This document shows positions 57,584-61,727 of a stretch of 62,730 nt of DNA, piece by piece. Each line of letters begins with the position of its first letter. Position 1 is the stretch's first letter. This DNA comes from a bacterium. GTDB lineage: Bacteria; Patescibacteriota; Minisyncoccia; UBA6257; GWB1-50-10. The position numbers and the translations under genes are program-made. Location: NCBI GenBank assembly GCA_021824045.1, contig JAKALR010000001.1:1-62730 (forward strand). The letters run 5' to 3'. The notes below the pieces were generated by a model. It had not been told where the DNA came from and did no database searches. It worked only from the letters and a program-made list of their open reading frames with translations.

Positions 57584-57605
57584 CTACCATCCCGGCAATT
57601 TAGGG

Positions 57606-57689
57606 TGCCCAGGAGAGGATTCGAACCTCCACGTCCTTAACGGACAGCAGCACCTCAAGCTGTAGCGTCTGCCATTTCGCCACCTGGGC
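57606..57689 (-). tRNA. tRNA-Leu(GAG), class II
   Basis: GCCCAGG/CCTGGGC acceptor, anticodon loop TTGAGGT, long variable arm GTCC-GTTA-GGAC, T-arm GGAGG-TTCGAAT-CCTCT. Confidence 0.9.
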
Positions 57690-57691
57690 AT

Positions 57692-58399
57692 TTATAGTTC
57701 CCTTCCGATAATCCTGAGGGCTTTTCCTATCTTTTCCCTCTTTCTTGAAAGACAAACTACGCCTTTATTGTAATATAATTTTGATAATAACTTCAAGGAA
57801 TCGGTCTTGGCGTATTTTAGCTGGTACACTGAATCATTGATGCTCTTGGTGATGTGGCCACGTGCGCCGAACAACTCTTCTATCTTGACTCGTAGCCACT
57901 CAATGTGTACTTTACTAGCCGAAACAAAAGCTGTGTAAAACATAAAACTGGAACGCCATCTCGGATCCCAATAAGAATAAAATGTCCCATCACCGTCGAG
58001 ATGACCTCGGATAAAGTCAGAAAAATATTTTTTGGGGATTTTAATTGCTCCGATTGTCTTTGATTTCGCCGGCGTAAGGCCAATTGTTATAAGAAATTTA
58101 TAAAAATTAACGTCGCCAAATTGGACGTGTGGCGACTGTTTATGAGTAAAGCCGGATGTTTTATAACTGATTTTCACTTGAATGCCAAGGCATTTCATAA
58201 AGTTATCAAGTTGTTCCATATCATTGGATGTGAAATCGATGTGCCGACCATCCGGAGACAAATTTCCATCGGTTGCAAGAAGTCCCATGGCGTAAGCAAA
58301 ATGAGGTGACCACCGAATGGCCACTTTCCCCTGCGGTTTCGTTCCCCTCTTCCCCATCTCACTTTCATTATACCTCAAATAAAAACCCCGCTCGTCCAT
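57692..58399 (-). CDS. LAGLIDADG-family homing endonuclease-like protein, free-standing
   Basis: Two LAGLIDADG motifs (GLLATDGNLS, GHLDGDGTF). The stop codon ends 2 nt before the tRNA-Leu 5' end. Alternative start at 58357. Confidence 0.8.
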   Translation of the reverse strand: MDERGFYLRYNESEMGKRGTKPQGKVAIRWSPHFAYAMGLLATDGNLSPDGRHIDFTSNDMEQLDNFMKCLGIQVKISYKTSGFTHKQSPHVQFGDVNFYKFLITIGLTPAKSKTIGAIKIPKKYFSDFIRGHLDGDGTFYSYWDPRWRSSFMFYTAFVSASKVHIEWLRVKIEELFGARGHITKSINDSVYQLKYAKTDSLKLLSKLYYNKGVVCLSRKREKIGKALRIIGREL

Positions 58400-60597: not shown

Positions 60598-60879
60598 TTA
60601 TATTCTCGACCGGTGGAGCCAATTCCACAAGGCGGCGAAGACCCAACCGAGGACATATCCGATGGCGGTTGTCACGATAACGAGCAGAATGGCCGTTCCC
60701 CAGGCAAAATTCCCTATGGTATAGGGAGGATGTATGAAGTGCAACCCGAAAATCCAATCCATGATTGGCTGAGCTAATCCTATCAAAACTAAAAACGCCC
60801 AGAATGCATGGCATAATCCAAGAAAAACTCCGAATACCACCCCCGACTTATTCTTGTCTAATGAGTTCATATTTTTCAT
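60598..60879 (-). CDS. hypothetical membrane protein
   Basis: Three hydrophobic helices. The track N-terminus overlaps tRNA-like sequence, so it was trimmed to MKNMNS. Confidence 0.5.
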   Translation of the reverse strand: MKNMNSLDKNKSGVVFGVFLGLCHAFWAFLVLIGLAQPIMDWIFGLHFIHPPYTIGNFAWGTAILLVIVTTAIGYVLGWVFAALWNWLHRSRI

Positions 60880-60910
60880 AAATATGCGACCTTTTGAAGT
60901 ATTGATTTTG

Positions 60911-61259
60911 TGGACCTGGGGAGAATCGAACTCCCGGCTCCTCATTGTTCCCGCACTTTCCCGAGCAGGGGCGAGGTTTTAAGTGTGCAATCCCGTACAA
61001 TGTGGACCGTAGCGGATTCGAACCGCTGACCTCCTCATTGCAAATGAGGTGCTCTACCAACTAAGCTAACGGCCCCTTTCTTGAATTTAAGTATAAAAAA
61101 AGCACAGAATTCTCGCAAACCGCCTAGAAATGAGCCGCCACATCGTACGGGACAAAAGCGGTATTCTTCCGGGGCAAAATTACTTATATATAAATCACCG
61201 TAGGTACTTATCCGTTGAAAGCAAAATCGTTTGTTTTCAACCCACTGAACTATAGGCCC
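60911..61259 (-). pseudogene. degenerate tRNA-like shell Y enclosing tRNA-Ala
   Basis: 5' part: GGGCCTATAGTTCAGTGGG, a 74-nt insert, then GAATACCGCTTTTG. Helix TCCCGTAC (61145-61152) pairs with GTACGGGA (60991-60998). 3' part has T-arm GGGAG-TTCGATT-CTCCC and acceptor CAGGTCCA (G3:U70 possible). Confidence 0.55.
61003..61075 (-). tRNA. tRNA-Ala(UGC)
   Basis: GGGCCGT/ACGGTCC with G3:U70, anticodon loop TTTGCAA, T-arm AGCGG-TTCGAAT-CCGCT. Own promoter-like TTGCGA-17-TATACT at 61090-61118. Confidence 0.9.
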
Positions 61260-61271
61260 TCCGTCACATCA

Positions 61272-61550
61272 TGGTGGGCATGGAAGGAATCGAACCTTCG
61301 ACCTCTGTCTTACTTGCCCCGCACCAAAATTGCGCTTTTCATGTCTGTGCGCGTGAATGGAATCGAACCATTGACCTCTGTCTTATCAGGACAGCGTTCT
61401 ACCACTGAACTACACGCGCAATTTTCGGTGCGGGGTCAGGCAGCGTTCTTCCGGGGTGAAAATGCCATATATAACTTAGCATAAGTATTCACCCGTTGAA
61501 AGCAAAGTTTCTTGCTTTCAACCCACTGAACTACATGCCCATTATTTTTC
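61272..61550 (-). pseudogene. interrupted tRNA-Ile(GAU)-like shell X enclosing an intact tRNA-Ile
   Basis: GGGCATG..CATGCCCACCA acceptor pair. 83-nt insert in the D-loop (61449-61531). Insert after anticodon nt 35 is bounded by CCCCGCACCGAAAATTG / CAATTTTGGTGCGGGG. One base is missing in the anticodon stem. Confidence 0.65.
61348..61419 (-). tRNA. tRNA-Ile(GAU)
   Basis: GCGCGTG/CACGCGC acceptor, anticodon arm CTGTC-CTGATAA-GACAG, T-arm AATGG-TTCGATT-CCATT. Confidence 0.9.
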
Positions 61551-61727
61551 ATTTCGAACGAACGAACCAGTCATATCGAAGATATCAGGACAGCATTCTT
61601 CCGGGGCGAAAGCGCTACTCTACTGCATGACTCCTTTTAAGGGGAGTTCGGTGAGACGAAAAAGTGGGTAAAAGACTTGGCCTAAGCGGCCCGGAGCGCA
61701 CACTTTTTCGGCTTGCCGAGCTCCCCC
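61551..61727 (-). other. partial third copy of the tRNA-linked module plus a stem enclosing a terminator-like palindrome
   Basis: Contains ..CGCCCCGGAAGAATGCTGTCCTGATA (Ile-like D-stem/anticodon fragment). Stem GGGGAGCTCGG (61716-61726) pairs with CCGAACTCCCC (61641-61651). Palindrome at 61659-61708. Confidence 0.5.

What the first reader, a model, noticed from the sequence alone, without database searches (positions are those of the whole stretch)
60911..61259. tRNA-Ala(UGC) lies inside a helix-flanked gap of a second, degenerate tRNA-like shell
Reading the minus strand, the shell starts as GGGCCTATAGTTCAGTGGG, then a 74-nt insert, then GAAT-A-CCGCT-TTTG. It therefore breaks after what would be anticodon nt 35 of a UGC anticodon. 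Next come TCCCGTAC, a spacer containing a T-run and its own TTGCGA-17-TATACT promoter, the intact tRNA-Ala, and the complementary GTACGGGA. A ~90-nt 3' part follows, ending in a good T-arm (GGGAG-TTCGATT-CTCCC) and acceptor strand CAGGTCCA. That strand pairs with the shell 5' end in 6 of 7 positions, including a G3:U70 pair. TTG is present on both sides of the insertion. The 3' part between the helix and the T-arm is scrambled, so this shell is probably non-functional.
Basis: seen in the sequence. Interest (0 to 1): 0.7.

Follow-up and report, generated by a model that had tools for sequence, protein, structure and literature searches.

The report
Working tRNA nested inside dead tRNA
The original alanine tRNA gene of this tiny (CPR/Patescibacteria) bacterium has been broken by a conserved two-hairpin insert and a helix-flanked cassette carrying a replacement alanine tRNA gene, one case of an apparently undescribed, recurrent "Russian-doll" tRNA-gene replacement seen across CPR bacteria.

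Summary
On the minus strand, 60911-61259 is a broken tRNA-Ala(UGC) gene. A 73-nt two-hairpin module ("M", 61169-61241) sits in its D-loop. After anticodon nt 35 comes a 162-nt cassette (60991-61152) bounded by a 15-bp inverted repeat. The cassette carries a promoter-like site and a different, canonical tRNA-Ala(UGC).

The shell is not a chance match. In a syntenic relative (L020) the same pieces form one intact tRNA-Ala, and the 3' half is 41/43 identical.

The tRNA-Ile gene just upstream has the same architecture, in three nested layers.

M is a conserved module that matched no Rfam family. I found about 53 non-redundant copies, almost all in Patescibacteria. About two thirds sit in the D-loop of a tRNA 5' fragment, usually followed by an intact tRNA of the same type.

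The shells decay like pseudogenes, and I found no intact tRNA gene carrying M alone.

Best reading: a DNA-level insertion that destroys a probably single-copy tRNA gene and survives only when a replacement copy comes with it. The transposition mechanism is unknown. Six literature searches found no description. Seven independent assemblies reproduce the locus.

The parts
61242..61259 (-). Unit B outer shell, 5' piece: acceptor 5' strand, D-stem 5' strand and D-loop up to G18G19 (GGGCCTATAGTTCAGTGG)
   Evidence: sequence. 17/18 identical to the intact tRNA-Ala of syntenic L020.
61169..61241 (-). Module M, copy B: G + hairpin P1 (TTGAAAACAAA..TTTGCTTTCAA) + C + degenerate hairpin P2 + CCCCGG, inserted in the D-loop
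   Evidence: 80% identical over 74 nt to the copy in unit A (D2) and 76-81% identical to copies in relatives. Its P2 pairing is lost: fold -9.6 kcal/mol, z = -0.1.
61153..61168 (-). Unit B outer shell, middle piece: AA, D-stem 3' strand GAAT, A26, anticodon-stem 5' strand CCGCT, loop TTTG (up to nt 35)
   Evidence: 12/14 identical to the L007-type tRNA-Ala but 10/14 to the L020 type. CCGCT cannot pair with the shell's own TGAGG (3 of 5 pairs).
60991..61152 (-). Anticodon-loop cassette, 162 nt: 5' arm of the inverted repeat (61138-61152), promoter-like TTGCGA-17-TATACT (61090-61118), inner tRNA-Ala, and 3' arm (60991-61005, overlapping the tRNA 3' end). Flanked by TTG on both sides.
   Evidence: I3: 15 nt, 93% complementary; promoter-like site; sequence.
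61002..61075 (-). Inner tRNA-Ala(UGC), canonical, with G3:U70; the presumed working gene
   Evidence: ARAGORN; Rfam tRNA 73.1 bits, E = 4e-14. Only 13/18 and 19/43 identical to the shell pieces. No SNP in any of the independent assemblies.
60948..60990 (-). 43 nt of extra sequence between the cassette and the shell 3' half. It begins with the duplicated TTG + CA and contains a segment resembling the Ile-Ala spacer of L038.
   Evidence: It carries a population SNP at 60976.
60911..60947 (-). Unit B outer shell, 3' half: loop CAA, anticodon-stem 3' strand TGAGG, variable loop, T-arm GGGAG-TTCGATT-CTCCC, acceptor 3' strand CAGGTCC, A73
   Evidence: 41/43 identical (with trailer CACAAAAT) to the intact tRNA-Ala of L020. 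Weak Rfam tRNA-like/tmRNA hit at 60908-60994.
61272..61540 (-). Unit A, the same architecture for tRNA-Ile. Outer shell 5' piece 61523-61540; module M copy A 61451-61522; middle piece 61436-61450; helix-flanked cassette 61317-61435 with inner tRNA-Ile(GAU) at 61347-61419; CAAG 61313-61316; shell 3' half with encoded CCA 61272-61312.
   Evidence: I5, I13; M copy A: -24.3 kcal/mol, z = -5.0; whole unit z = -5.7. The shell is the ortholog of the functional inner tRNA-Ile of L007 and L020.
61541..61630 (-). Relic of a third, outermost tRNA-Ile shell: the last ~20 nt of an M copy (..CGCTTTCGCCCCGG), then AAGAATGCTGTCCTGATA and the 5' arm of an older cassette. Its 5' piece, most of M and its whole 3' half have been deleted.
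   Evidence: Homologous to the complete outer shell of L007 and L020. The CCCCGGAAGAA motif occurs a third time in the window here.

Best explanation
The interval is the wreck of this lineage's original tRNA-Ala(UGC) gene.

Two insertions split it. One is a conserved, non-coding two-hairpin module (M) in the D-loop after G18-G19. The other, 16 nt further on and after anticodon nt 35, is a cassette closed by a 15-bp inverted repeat. The cassette brings a promoter-like site and a different, complete tRNA-Ala(UGC). The inner gene is now the working one. The shell is a pseudogene that is co-transcribed or silent and is slowly decaying.

The same process hit the neighbouring tRNA-Ile gene at least twice in succession, which produced three nested layers.

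How it works (inferred). M behaves as a DNA-level mobile or recombinogenic element that lands in the G-rich elbow loops of tRNA genes. These reduced genomes probably carry each tRNA gene once (not checked here), so an insertion should be lethal unless the same event, or an immediate rescue recombination, places an intact copy of the same tRNA next to or inside the broken one. Only such events would then be seen. Once formed, a nested allele can spread between relatives by homologous recombination through the tRNA-derived arms. The chimeric shell of unit B points that way.

The inner pre-tRNA is presumably released by RNase P and RNase Z. The flanking helix may act as a processing stem.

Shown: the anatomy, the orthology of the shell to an intact gene, the conservation and distribution of M, the decay of the shells, and the absence of M-only tRNA genes.

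Inferred: mobility at the DNA level, the survival-filter logic, spread by recombination, and the processing route.
For: Anatomy and significance.

The shell is the resident gene. Syntenic L020 (same upstream 70-aa ORF and downstream 92-aa ORF) has one intact tRNA-Ala whose 5' 18 nt (17/18) and 3' 43 nt (41/43) match the window's shell pieces.

Serial nesting. L007 and L020 have two Ile layers. Their inner Ile corresponds to the window's unit A shell, and their outer shell corresponds to the window's truncated relic.

M is a conserved family.
- 15 of 16 hits in a scan of 185,579 species genomes are Patescibacteria, and a metagenome scan gave 84 stretches.
- I curated 53 non-redundant bona fide copies. 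GGG precedes about 90% of them (50 of 57 before four spurious hits were dropped), and most (about 85%) are followed by N-GG, although neither was in the metagenome pattern.
- In a 41-sequence core alignment, 91% of cells are paired, 10 pairs change on both sides, and 0 of 500 shuffles reach the observed covariation score.

Context. About two thirds of copies sit in the D-loop of a tRNA 5' fragment. Of these, 27 have an intact tRNA downstream on the same strand; in every case I compared it was of the same type, across at least 11 isoacceptors.

Tandem arrays of fragment+M units occur before an intact tRNA (L001/L071, L027, L028/L051, L082).

Shell 3' halves complementary to the shell 5' ends occur in about 10 loci.

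The shells decay.
- L020's outer Ile has C56 changed to T, a broken D-stem and a broken anticodon stem.
- The window's unit A shell and L016 share a 1-nt deletion in the anticodon stem.
- The window's outermost shell is mostly deleted.
- Unit B's anticodon stem pairs at 3 of 5 positions.
- All population SNPs fall in the shell, M or the extra sequence, and none in the inner tRNAs.

Deleting M alone never gives an intact tRNA in any locus.

Pointers to the DNA level.
- M occurs antisense to a tRNA-Tyr fragment (L006+, L035).
- It also occurs in non-tRNA contexts with local duplications, for example a 41-nt duplication in L078 and an insertion inside a CsaA-like gene in L047.
- G-U and A-C mismatches in its stems are equally frequent, 9 against 8.

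Chimeric shell. The middle piece is L007-like and does not complement the shell's own 3' strand.

Reality of the locus: seven independent assemblies.
Against: - No transposase, integrase or homing endonuclease recurs near M, and none lies beside the Ile-Ala cluster. The agent of mobility is therefore unknown.
- No empty-site/filled-site pair for M alone was found, so M and the cassette cannot be separated in time.
- Target-site duplications are inconsistent: TTG in unit B and none clear in unit A.
- The cassette arms (TTCA)CCCCG...CGGGG(CAAG) are conserved across phyla and across cargo tRNAs. This suggests a defined element or a functional RNA helix rather than random rescue.
- M's stems are kept in some old shells (L007, L020). 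That could mean selection for a function rather than selfish persistence.
- The covariation figure for P2 is partly circular, because P2's 3' boundary was chosen by pairing.
- The origin of the inner tRNA-Ala could not be traced.
- No expression data exist.
Confidence: 0.7

Rival explanations
1. The outer gene is a functional, multiply interrupted tRNA-Ala. M and the cassette are RNA-level introns removed by an unknown Patescibacteria splicing system, and the anticodon-loop intron happens to encode a second tRNA. This would be a bacterial counterpart of archaeal multi-intron tRNAs.
For: - Insertion positions (D-loop after G19, anticodon loop after nt 35, and the T-loop in L060) are classic loop positions.
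- The acceptor stem and T-arm of several shells are perfect: unit A 7/7, L007, L012 and L094.
- Cassette ends are conserved across tRNA types.
- The unit B helix contains one G-U pair.
- ARAGORN accepts the in-silico spliced shell as tRNA-Ala(tgc).
Against: - The spliced unit B has an anticodon stem of 3 of 5 pairs, built from two different lineages, plus 43 extra nt that would also have to be removed.
- The spliced unit A has a 1-nt deletion in its anticodon stem, shared with L016.
- Shells carry changes at universal positions and large deletions.
- Most M-bearing fragments have no 3' half at all.
- No M-only intact tRNA exists.
- M also occurs antisense to tRNA fragments and in protein-gene contexts.
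- There is no bulge-helix-bulge geometry; the junction is a continuous 15-bp helix.
- An intact same-anticodon tRNA inside makes the shell redundant.
Confidence: 0.06
2. The partial tRNA copies are attachment-site scars of a tyrosine-integrase element (phage or island) that integrated into the tRNA gene and was later almost completely deleted. M is a leftover of its arm.
For: - Integrative elements are known to target the anticodon and T-loops of tRNA genes and leave partial tRNA duplicates (established knowledge; Williams 2002, cited from memory).
- L020 has an intact tRNA-Ala, then about 120 nt, then a T-loop-to-3'-end repeat, which looks like a miniature attL/attR pair.
- Tandem fragment+M arrays resemble repeated integrations.
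Against: - No integrase gene is near the locus or recurrent near M.
- The units are uniformly tiny (about 100-160 nt) across dozens of lineages.
- The duplicated pieces are mostly 5' fragments.
- In nested units the shell 5' half is not joined to any element-borne 3' half. A whole tRNA sits inside instead.
- M lies inside the displaced tRNA copy, with tRNA sequence on both sides, not at its edge.
Confidence: 0.1
3. The shell plus M is kept because it does something for the inner gene: a tRNA-like leader or processing scaffold, or an attenuator that controls transcription or maturation of the downstream tRNA.
For: - M is always on the 5' side of the intact tRNA, at a short and fairly constant distance.
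- In the Ser/Leu class, M and the closing D-stem are followed by a T-run and then a TTGACC-like box.
- M's stems are preserved in old shells.
- The unit A RNA is predicted to fold very stably, z = -5.7.
Against: - M copy B has lost P2 pairing.
- The window's outermost M was mostly deleted without harm.
- Close relatives express the same tRNA-Ala without any of it (L007, L020).
- Four other tRNA genes in the window lack it.
- The scan found no terminator in the Ile-Ala cluster itself (its one match, at 60711-60727, lies in the downstream ORF), and promoter-like sites are at chance level.
- M also occurs away from tRNAs.
Confidence: 0.1
4. Chance resemblance or an assembly chimera: the tRNA-like flanks are spacer sequence or a mis-join of repeats.
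For: Assemblies often break inside this locus, with contig ends at 61272-61277. This shows it is repeat-rich.
Against: - The same 1366 nt are reproduced exactly in an independent 30.7-kb contig, and unit B is covered by further contigs from other samples with 1-3 SNPs.
- The shell pieces are 17/18 and 41/43 identical to a real tRNA-Ala in a relative.
- The architecture recurs in dozens of loci.
Confidence: 0.01

Closest known systems
Disrupted tRNA genes of Archaea and red algae (multiple or non-canonical introns, split and permuted tRNAs; mobile tRNA introns of Thermoproteales)
   Same: A tRNA gene is interrupted at loop positions other than 37/38, including the D-loop. Several interruptions occur per gene. 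Helices form between the sequences flanking the interruption. There is evidence that the interrupting sequences move between tRNA genes (PMC10714607 summarises Fujishima et al. 2010; PMC4390854).
   Different: - The host is a bacterium.
- There is no bulge-helix-bulge motif.
- The interrupted gene is a decaying pseudogene, not a spliced functional gene.
- The interruption contains a complete second tRNA of the same identity.
- The D-loop insert is a conserved two-hairpin module also found outside tRNAs and in antisense orientation.
tRNA-gene-targeting integrative elements (tyrosine-integrase phages and islands)
   Same: They target the anticodon or T-loops of tRNA genes, keep the cell alive by bringing replacement tRNA sequence, leave partial tRNA copies as scars, and can integrate repeatedly.
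   Different: - No integrase was found.
- The units are 70-160 nt.
- The replacement is a whole tRNA placed inside the old gene, not a 3' segment fused to the old 5' half.
- Most scars are 5' fragments.
Short structured bacterial repeats: MITEs, REP/BIME, Correia/NEMIS, and palindrome-associated elements of the IS200/IS605 family
   Same: They are non-coding, tens of nucleotides long, hairpin-forming and multi-copy, with a conserved stem base and a variable tip. M's two stems pair equally well on either strand. The unit B cassette has 15-bp terminal inverted repeats and a 3-bp flanking repeat.
   Different: - M's inverted repeats form adjacent hairpins, not terminal repeats.
- M has a strong preference for tRNA elbow loops.
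- It is regularly associated with a duplicated or replacement gene copy.
- No partner transposase has been identified.
Group I introns in bacterial tRNA anticodon loops
   Same: The insertion site is in the anticodon loop of a bacterial tRNA gene, and the cassette ends in G.
   Different: There is no group I core and no Rfam Intron_gpI hit. At 119-162 nt the cassette is mostly occupied by a canonical tRNA, and the host gene is not restored by its removal.

Membership tests
Canonical bacterial tRNA (inner gene 61002-61075) | Scores above the Rfam tRNA gathering threshold and folds as a cloverleaf with a 7-nt anticodon loop | tested here: met
   73.1 bits against a threshold of 29; ARAGORN calls tRNA-Ala(tgc).
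Canonical bacterial tRNA (inner gene 61002-61075) | Alanine identity element G3:U70 | tested here: met
   The acceptor stem GGGCCGT/ACGGTCC gives G3:U70.
Functional tRNA (outer shell after removal of inserts) | All four stems are intact once the intervening sequences are removed | tested here: not met
   Acceptor stem 6/7, D-stem 4/4 (one G-U) and T-stem 5/5, but the anticodon stem pairs at only 3 of 5 positions, and 43 extra nt must also be removed.
Functional tRNA (outer shell after removal of inserts) | Purifying selection on the shell in relatives | tested here: not met
   Orthologous shells show C56 changed to T, broken D and anticodon stems, a shared 1-nt deletion and large deletions. 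Population SNPs fall in the shell.
Archaeal-type (endonuclease-spliced) tRNA intron | Bulge-helix-bulge motif at both exon-intron junctions | tested here: not met
   The junctions flank a continuous 15-bp (unit B) or 19-bp (unit A) helix, with no 3-nt bulges 4 bp apart.
Archaeal-type (endonuclease-spliced) tRNA intron | The host encodes a splicing endonuclease (EndA) and a ligase | not tested
   Only 62.7 kb of the genome is available, and no such gene was looked for beyond the ORFs near the locus.
Group I intron | Conserved catalytic core (P3-P8) detectable by covariance model; length of about 200 nt or more | tested here: not met
   No Intron_gpI match even at E up to 10. The cassettes are 119 and 162 nt and mostly tRNA.
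Integrase-mediated integrative element at a tRNA gene | A tyrosine or serine recombinase gene within the inserted DNA or adjacent to it | tested here: not met
   No such domain in the neighbouring ORFs, and no recurrent recombinase in 48 M-bearing loci.
Integrase-mediated integrative element at a tRNA gene | A direct repeat of the tRNA 3' segment bounds the element, with an intact hybrid tRNA at one end | tested here: not met
   In unit B the shell 5' half is not joined to a 3' half, and the intact tRNA lies wholly inside. A pattern of this kind does occur 3' of the tRNA-Ala of L020.
MITE-like non-autonomous transposon (the unit B cassette) | Terminal inverted repeats | tested here: met
   15 nt, 93% complementary (I3).
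MITE-like non-autonomous transposon (the unit B cassette) | Target-site duplication of constant length, and multiple homologous copies | tested here: inconclusive
   TTG flanks unit B, but unit A has no clear repeat. No second copy of the unit B cassette exists among 115 loci. The arm motif CCCCG..CGGGG(CAAG) recurs around other tRNAs.
Known RNA family (module M) | A match to any Rfam 15 covariance model | tested here: not met
   Nothing overlaps M in the window at E up to 10, apart from one chance-level match (RF04321, 14 bits against a threshold of 47, E = 5.7) that clips 7 nt of copy B. Nothing overlaps M in five M-bearing loci at E up to 5 or in 20 loci at gathering threshold.

The most novel reading that the evidence does not exclude
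M and the CCCCG...CGGGG-armed tRNA cassettes are parts of a previously undescribed class of mobile element in Patescibacteria. The element specifically invades the elbow and anticodon loops of essential single-copy tRNA genes and carries, or forces the capture of, a replacement copy ("kill and replace"). This makes the element hard to lose and builds Russian-doll tRNA genes layer by layer. The nested allele then spreads between lineages by recombination through the tRNA-derived arms.
Probability: 0.4. Interest if true: 0.85.

Novelty: new variant of a known kind. Interest (0 to 1): 0.78.

Why it matters
- It would add a bacterial chapter to the story of disrupted tRNA genes, so far mainly an archaeal and algal one. 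The outcome also differs: replacement and decay rather than splicing.
- It defines a conserved, widespread, structured sequence module in the Candidate Phyla Radiation that matched no Rfam family and did not turn up in my literature searches.
- It is a practical trap for annotation. tRNA finders report only the inner genes, and gene callers extend a spurious ORF into the shell (60598-60945). Assemblers often break contigs inside the locus, at 61272-61277.
- Layered shells are a built-in fossil record of successive tRNA gene replacements. They could be used to date horizontal transfer among organisms that cannot be cultured.
- If the kill-and-replace logic is right, it is a new way for a selfish element to become fixed in a minimal genome.

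Tried and rejected
- ARAGORN on every (x,y) deletion around the inner tRNAs. It is too permissive: with acceptor, D and T arms fixed, almost any filler is accepted as an anticodon arm. I dropped it as a test of splice sites.
- A link to homing endonucleases. The LAGLIDADG-like ORF beside tRNA-Leu (57692-58399) has no tRNA-Leu shell upstream. It is unrelated to an HTH-bearing ORF beside the M-invaded tRNA-Cys of L008. No such gene recurs near M.
- M as a sigma-70 promoter. The P2 loops are AT-rich and TATAAT-like, but no -35 box lies at a workable spacing (by eye). The scan finds no promoter in M.
- M as a simple intron. Deleting M alone never restores a tRNA.
- M as an RNA-only structure. There is no excess of G-U over A-C mismatches.
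- M in viruses. The five IMG/VR hits lack P2 and the flanks and look like chance matches.
- Tracing the donor of the inner tRNA-Ala cassette.
- Diversity-generating retroelement, integron attC and Xer/dif analogies. I considered these from memory and dropped them: the differences between copies are not adenine-specific, the order of the core sites is wrong, and the inner stem positions covary.
- Six literature searches found no description of nested bacterial tRNA genes or of M. PMC10714607 covers only archaeal tRNA introns and CPR rRNA introns.
Full report
CHECK OF THE OBSERVATION

- Shell 5' end: GGGCCTATAGTTCAGTGGG (61259-61241).
- A 73-74-nt insert.
- Middle piece: AAGAATACCGCTTTTG (61168-61153), which stops after anticodon nt 35.
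- An inverted repeat, TCCCGTACGATGTGG / CCACATTGTACGGGA: 15 nt, 93% complementary, 132 nt between the arms (I3).
- A TTGCGA-17-TATACT site. Such sites are no more frequent here than in shuffles.
- An intact tRNA-Ala(tgc) at 61002-61075 (ARAGORN; Rfam 73.1 bits).
- TTG on both sides of the repeat-bounded segment.
- After 43 further nucleotides: CAA-TGAGG-AGCC-GGGAG-TTCGATT-CTCCC-CAGGTCC-A, ending at 60911.

I removed the insert and the segment 60948-61152 in silico. ARAGORN then folds the remainder as a 72-nt tRNA-Ala(tgc). Its acceptor stem pairs at 6 of 7 positions with G3:U70. The D-stem and T-stem are complete. The anticodon stem pairs at only 3 of 5 positions.

The locus is not an assembly artefact. 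A 30.7-kb contig from another sample is identical over 1366 nt. Shorter contigs from further samples cover unit B or unit A with 1-3 SNPs.

THE SAME ARCHITECTURE NEXT DOOR

Twelve nucleotides upstream, 61272-61540 repeats the plan for tRNA-Ile.

- Shell: GGGCATG-TA-GTTC-AGTGGG.
- A 72-nt insert, 80% identical to the one in the Ala shell (D2).
- Middle piece: AAGAACGCTGCCTGA.
- A 19-bp helix, CCCCGCACCGAAAATTGCGC / GCGCAATTTTGGTGCGGGG (I5 and I13), enclosing tRNA-Ile(gat) at 61347-61419.
- Then CAAG and a perfect shell 3' half ending in CATGCCC-ACCA.

This unit is predicted to fold far better than shuffles (z = -5.7). Unit B is not (z = -1.5).

Upstream of unit A, at 61541-61630, lies a third CCCCGGAAGAA motif followed by AATGCTGTCCTGATA.

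WHAT THE INSERT IS

I call the insert M. Its layout is GGG, hairpin P1 (TTGAAAGC...GCTTTCAA), C, hairpin P2 (GGGNNN...NNNCCC), N, GG.

Distribution.
- A pattern spanning the D-loop/P1 junction hit 16 stretches in one genome per each of 185,579 species. Fifteen are Patescibacteria: Saccharibacteria, Paceibacterota, Yanofsky-, Kerfeld- and Gribaldobacteria, and Parcubacteria.
- A pattern with no tRNA sequence in it hit 84 metagenome stretches.
- After removing redundancy and obvious chance hits, 53 copies remain.

Conservation and structure.
- The 5' GGG (about 90% of copies; 50 of 57 before four spurious hits were dropped) and the 3' N-GG (most copies, about 85%) are conserved, although neither was part of the metagenome pattern.
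- The tips of P1 and positions 4-7 of P2 covary.
- On a 41-sequence core alignment, 91% of cells pair, 10 pairs change on both sides, and no shuffle of 500 reaches the observed covariation score.
- A caveat applies: the 3' boundary of P2 was chosen by pairing, so this figure is partly circular.
- G-U and A-C mismatches are equally rare (9 against 8 in P2). The stems are therefore as good on one strand as on the other, and nothing points specifically to RNA.
- No Rfam 15 family meaningfully matches M.

WHERE M SITS

About two thirds of copies lie in the D-loop of a tRNA 5' fragment, in the sense orientation. Twenty-seven of those have an intact tRNA 25-230 nt downstream. Where I compared fragment and gene, the types matched. 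At least 11 isoacceptors are represented (Ile, Ala, Val, Thr, Cys, Ser, Leu, Phe, Asn, Lys and others).

- Young events. In some loci the fragment and the intact gene are identical, including up to 18 nt of leader (L046 has a 37-nt direct repeat; also L048, L003, L010, L057).
- Tandem arrays. Several loci have two fragment+M units before the intact tRNA (L001/L071/L081/L086, L027, L028/L051, L082).
- Nested units. About ten loci also keep a shell 3' half whose acceptor strand complements the shell 5' end, as in this window.
- T-loop insertion. In L060, M lies in the T-loop of a tRNA-Arg copy, with an identical complete tRNA-Arg nested after it.
- Antisense insertion. In L006+/L035, M lies antisense to a 3' fragment of tRNA-Tyr.
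- Non-tRNA contexts. About ten copies are away from tRNAs, and some have local duplications. L078 has a 41-nt duplication of a gene start. In L047, M sits inside a CsaA-like gene.
- Deleting M alone never yields an intact tRNA in any locus. M is therefore not a benign intron of otherwise intact genes.

RELATIVES OF THIS LOCUS GIVE THE HISTORY

L016 and L020 share the upstream 70-aa ORF with the window. L020 also shares the downstream 92-aa ORF.

- L007 (an 804-kb complete chromosome) and L020 have a two-layer Ile. The outer shell (GCGCATG / GCGCAGG) carries M and a helix-flanked inner tRNA-Ile (GGGCATA / GGGCATG).
- That inner gene is the counterpart of the window's unit A shell.
- Their outer shell is the counterpart of the window's relic at 61541-61630. 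The relic has lost its 5' piece, most of M and its whole 3' half.
- The window, and L016 for the part that is available, has therefore undergone one more round of invasion at Ile.

Both L007 and L020 have a single uninterrupted tRNA-Ala.

- The L020 gene matches the window's Ala shell at 17/18 positions for the 5' piece.
- It matches at 41/43 for the 3' piece, including the trailer CACAAAAT.
- The shell is therefore the resident tRNA-Ala gene of the lineage.

THE SHELLS ARE PSEUDOGENES

- L020's outer Ile shell has C56 changed to T, a broken D-stem, a broken anticodon-stem 3' strand and an acceptor mismatch.
- The unit A shell has a 1-nt deletion in the anticodon stem that L016 shares, and L016 also has a changed first base.
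- The window's outermost shell is mostly deleted.

In unit B the anticodon-stem 5' strand is CCGCT. That sequence belongs to the L007-type tRNA-Ala, where it pairs with AGCGG. The 3' strand is TGAGG, which is the L020 type and pairs with CCTCA. The shell is thus chimeric. The block formed by M, the middle piece and the cassette looks as if it was imported from a relative that already carried a nested allele, by recombination within tRNA-derived homology. I regard this as suggestive, because it rests on a few nucleotides.

M copy B has itself lost P2 pairing. The population SNPs at 61234, 61159, 60976 and 60937 fall in M, the shell or the extra sequence. None falls in the inner tRNAs.

THE CASSETTES

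The inner tRNA-Ala differs strongly from the resident gene: different D-arm, T-arm and acceptor stem, with 13/18 and 19/43 ungapped identity. It has no relative among the 115 loci I fetched. It was probably not made by local duplication.

In other loci the inner copy is identical to the shell (L060, L046, L003). Both local and foreign copies therefore occur.

The arms around the inner tRNA belong to a recurring type, (TTCA)CCCCG ... CGGGG(CAAG).
- It is shared by the window's unit A and L016 (Ile), L012 (Ala-CGC), L029, L063, L002 and L079 (Val) and, more loosely, L006 (Thr) and unit B.
- The middle of the helix covaries.
- L007 and L020 use unrelated arms.
- In L060 the inner leader is the reverse complement of the outer trailer.

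I cannot say whether these helices are transposon ends, products of fold-back repair synthesis, or processing stems selected at the RNA level.

MECHANISM, WITH SHOWN AND INFERRED STEPS MARKED

Shown:
- a conserved module inserted in tRNA elbow loops;
- an intact same-type tRNA always accompanying it;
- decay of the interrupted copy;
- successive layers in a phylogenetic series;
- no recurrent recombinase.

Inferred:
- M acts at the DNA level. It occurs in either orientation relative to the tRNA fragment, in non-tRNA sites and with local duplications, and its stems show no strand bias.
- Insertion into a single-copy essential tRNA gene can survive only if an intact copy is supplied. The supply could be unequal or illegitimate recombination with an uninvaded sister copy, capture of a tRNA-bearing fragment, or import of an already nested allele.
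- The inner pre-tRNAs are released by RNase P and RNase Z from a cluster transcript. A TTGACA-18-TAAACT site lies at 61769-61740. For Ala there may also be a start from the cassette's own promoter-like site.

RIVALS

- A true multi-intron functional outer tRNA is disfavoured by the broken and chimeric anticodon stems, the decay, the lack of bulge-helix-bulge geometry and the absence of M-only genes.
- Integrase scars are disfavoured by the lack of any integrase, the uniformly tiny size and the wrong topology. L020 does show an att-like 3' repeat beside its tRNA-Ala.
- A cis-regulatory or processing role for M and the shell is not excluded, but it is dispensable in close relatives and is decaying here.
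- Chance and mis-assembly are excluded.

COMPARISON WITH WHAT IS KNOWN

The nearest known things are the following.
- Archaeal and algal disrupted tRNA genes: same loop positions and mobile interruptions, but spliced and functional.
- tRNA-targeting integrative elements: same logic of restoring the target, but integrase-borne and fusing a 3' segment.
- MITE/REP-like structured repeats: same size and hairpin nature.

None combines a conserved elbow-loop module with a whole replacement tRNA nested in the wreck of the old gene. Six full-text searches found nothing of the kind for bacteria. I classify it as a new variant of a known kind, namely mobile-element disruption of tRNA genes with functional replacement. 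It is possibly a new class of element.

VERDICT

The finding is real and correctly interpreted. It opens onto a broader, apparently undescribed phenomenon in Patescibacteria. Interest 0.78.

Noticed in passing
window 61272-61540 (minus strand): A second nested unit. tRNA-Ile(GAU) at 61347-61419 lies inside a near-perfect tRNA-Ile shell that has the same D-loop module and a 19-bp flanking helix. It folds with z = -5.7.
   Followed up: yes
window 61541-61630 (minus strand): Relic of a third, outermost tRNA-Ile shell: the tail of an M copy, D-stem 3' strand, anticodon arm 5' part and an old cassette arm. It is homologous to the complete outer shell in L007 and L020, so the Ile gene has been replaced at least twice.
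   Followed up: yes
window 61641-61726: A 26-nt inverted repeat (85% complementary, 34-nt loop) lies between the stop codon of the 70-aa ORF and the tRNA cluster. It is conserved at 89% in L007 but absent from L016 and L020, so it may be another inserted hairpin element. It has no Rfam match.
   Followed up: partly
window 57692-58399 (minus strand), beside tRNA-Leu(GAG) at 57603-57690: A free-standing 235-aa ORF with a weak LAGLIDADG_3 match (E = 9e-5) ends 1 nt before the tRNA-Leu gene. There is no tRNA-Leu shell upstream of it.
   Followed up: partly
window 60598-60945 (minus strand): The mechanical 115-aa ORF starts inside the shell 3' half (ATG of CAATGAGG). By comparison with L038 the real start is probably the ATGAAAAATATG near 60876. 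A gene caller could extend a gene into the tRNA relic.
   Followed up: partly
window 61272-61277; loci L107, L108, L113: Independent assemblies of the same organism end or begin exactly at the junction between units A and B. The repeated tRNA and M sequences break short-read assemblies.
   Followed up: yes
L020, about 70-200 nt 3' of its tRNA-Ala: The intact tRNA-Ala is followed by a hairpin, an M-like variant (GAACGCAAACTGCTTTGCGTTC-GCGGGG...) and a repeat of the tRNA's T-loop-to-3'-end segment (GACTCTCCCTAGGTCCACA). This is a mirror-image, 3'-side version of the phenomenon.
   Followed up: partly
L060 (Ga0075937_118): M is inserted in the T-loop of a tRNA-Arg(GCG) copy, followed by an identical complete tRNA-Arg and then the shell's 3' end. 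The inner leader is the reverse complement of the outer trailer, a fold-back signature.
   Followed up: partly
L047, L078, L041/L043/L068: M occurs outside tRNAs. In L047 it lies inside a CsaA/Trbp111-like tRNA-binding-domain gene whose middle is missing. In L078 it lies next to a 41-nt duplication of the start of an HMA-domain gene. In L041/L043/L068 it is flanked by a 12-nt direct repeat.
   Followed up: partly
L012, L029, L063 cassette arms versus the M core: The 3' arm TTTCTAACGGGGCAAG resembles the centre of M (TTTCAACGGGCGAA), and the 5' arm resembles its reverse complement. The cassette arms might therefore be inverted partial copies of M. This could be coincidence.
   Followed up: no
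M copies of L063, L065, L073, L076, L096, L003 and of L039, L045, L047, L053, L085, L100: P2 comes in subtypes with conserved internal loops (TTACGAGCA...GCGCAGTAAT and TTTTAGCCAAA...TTTGGCGTAAAA). This hints at a constraint beyond simple pairing.
   Followed up: no
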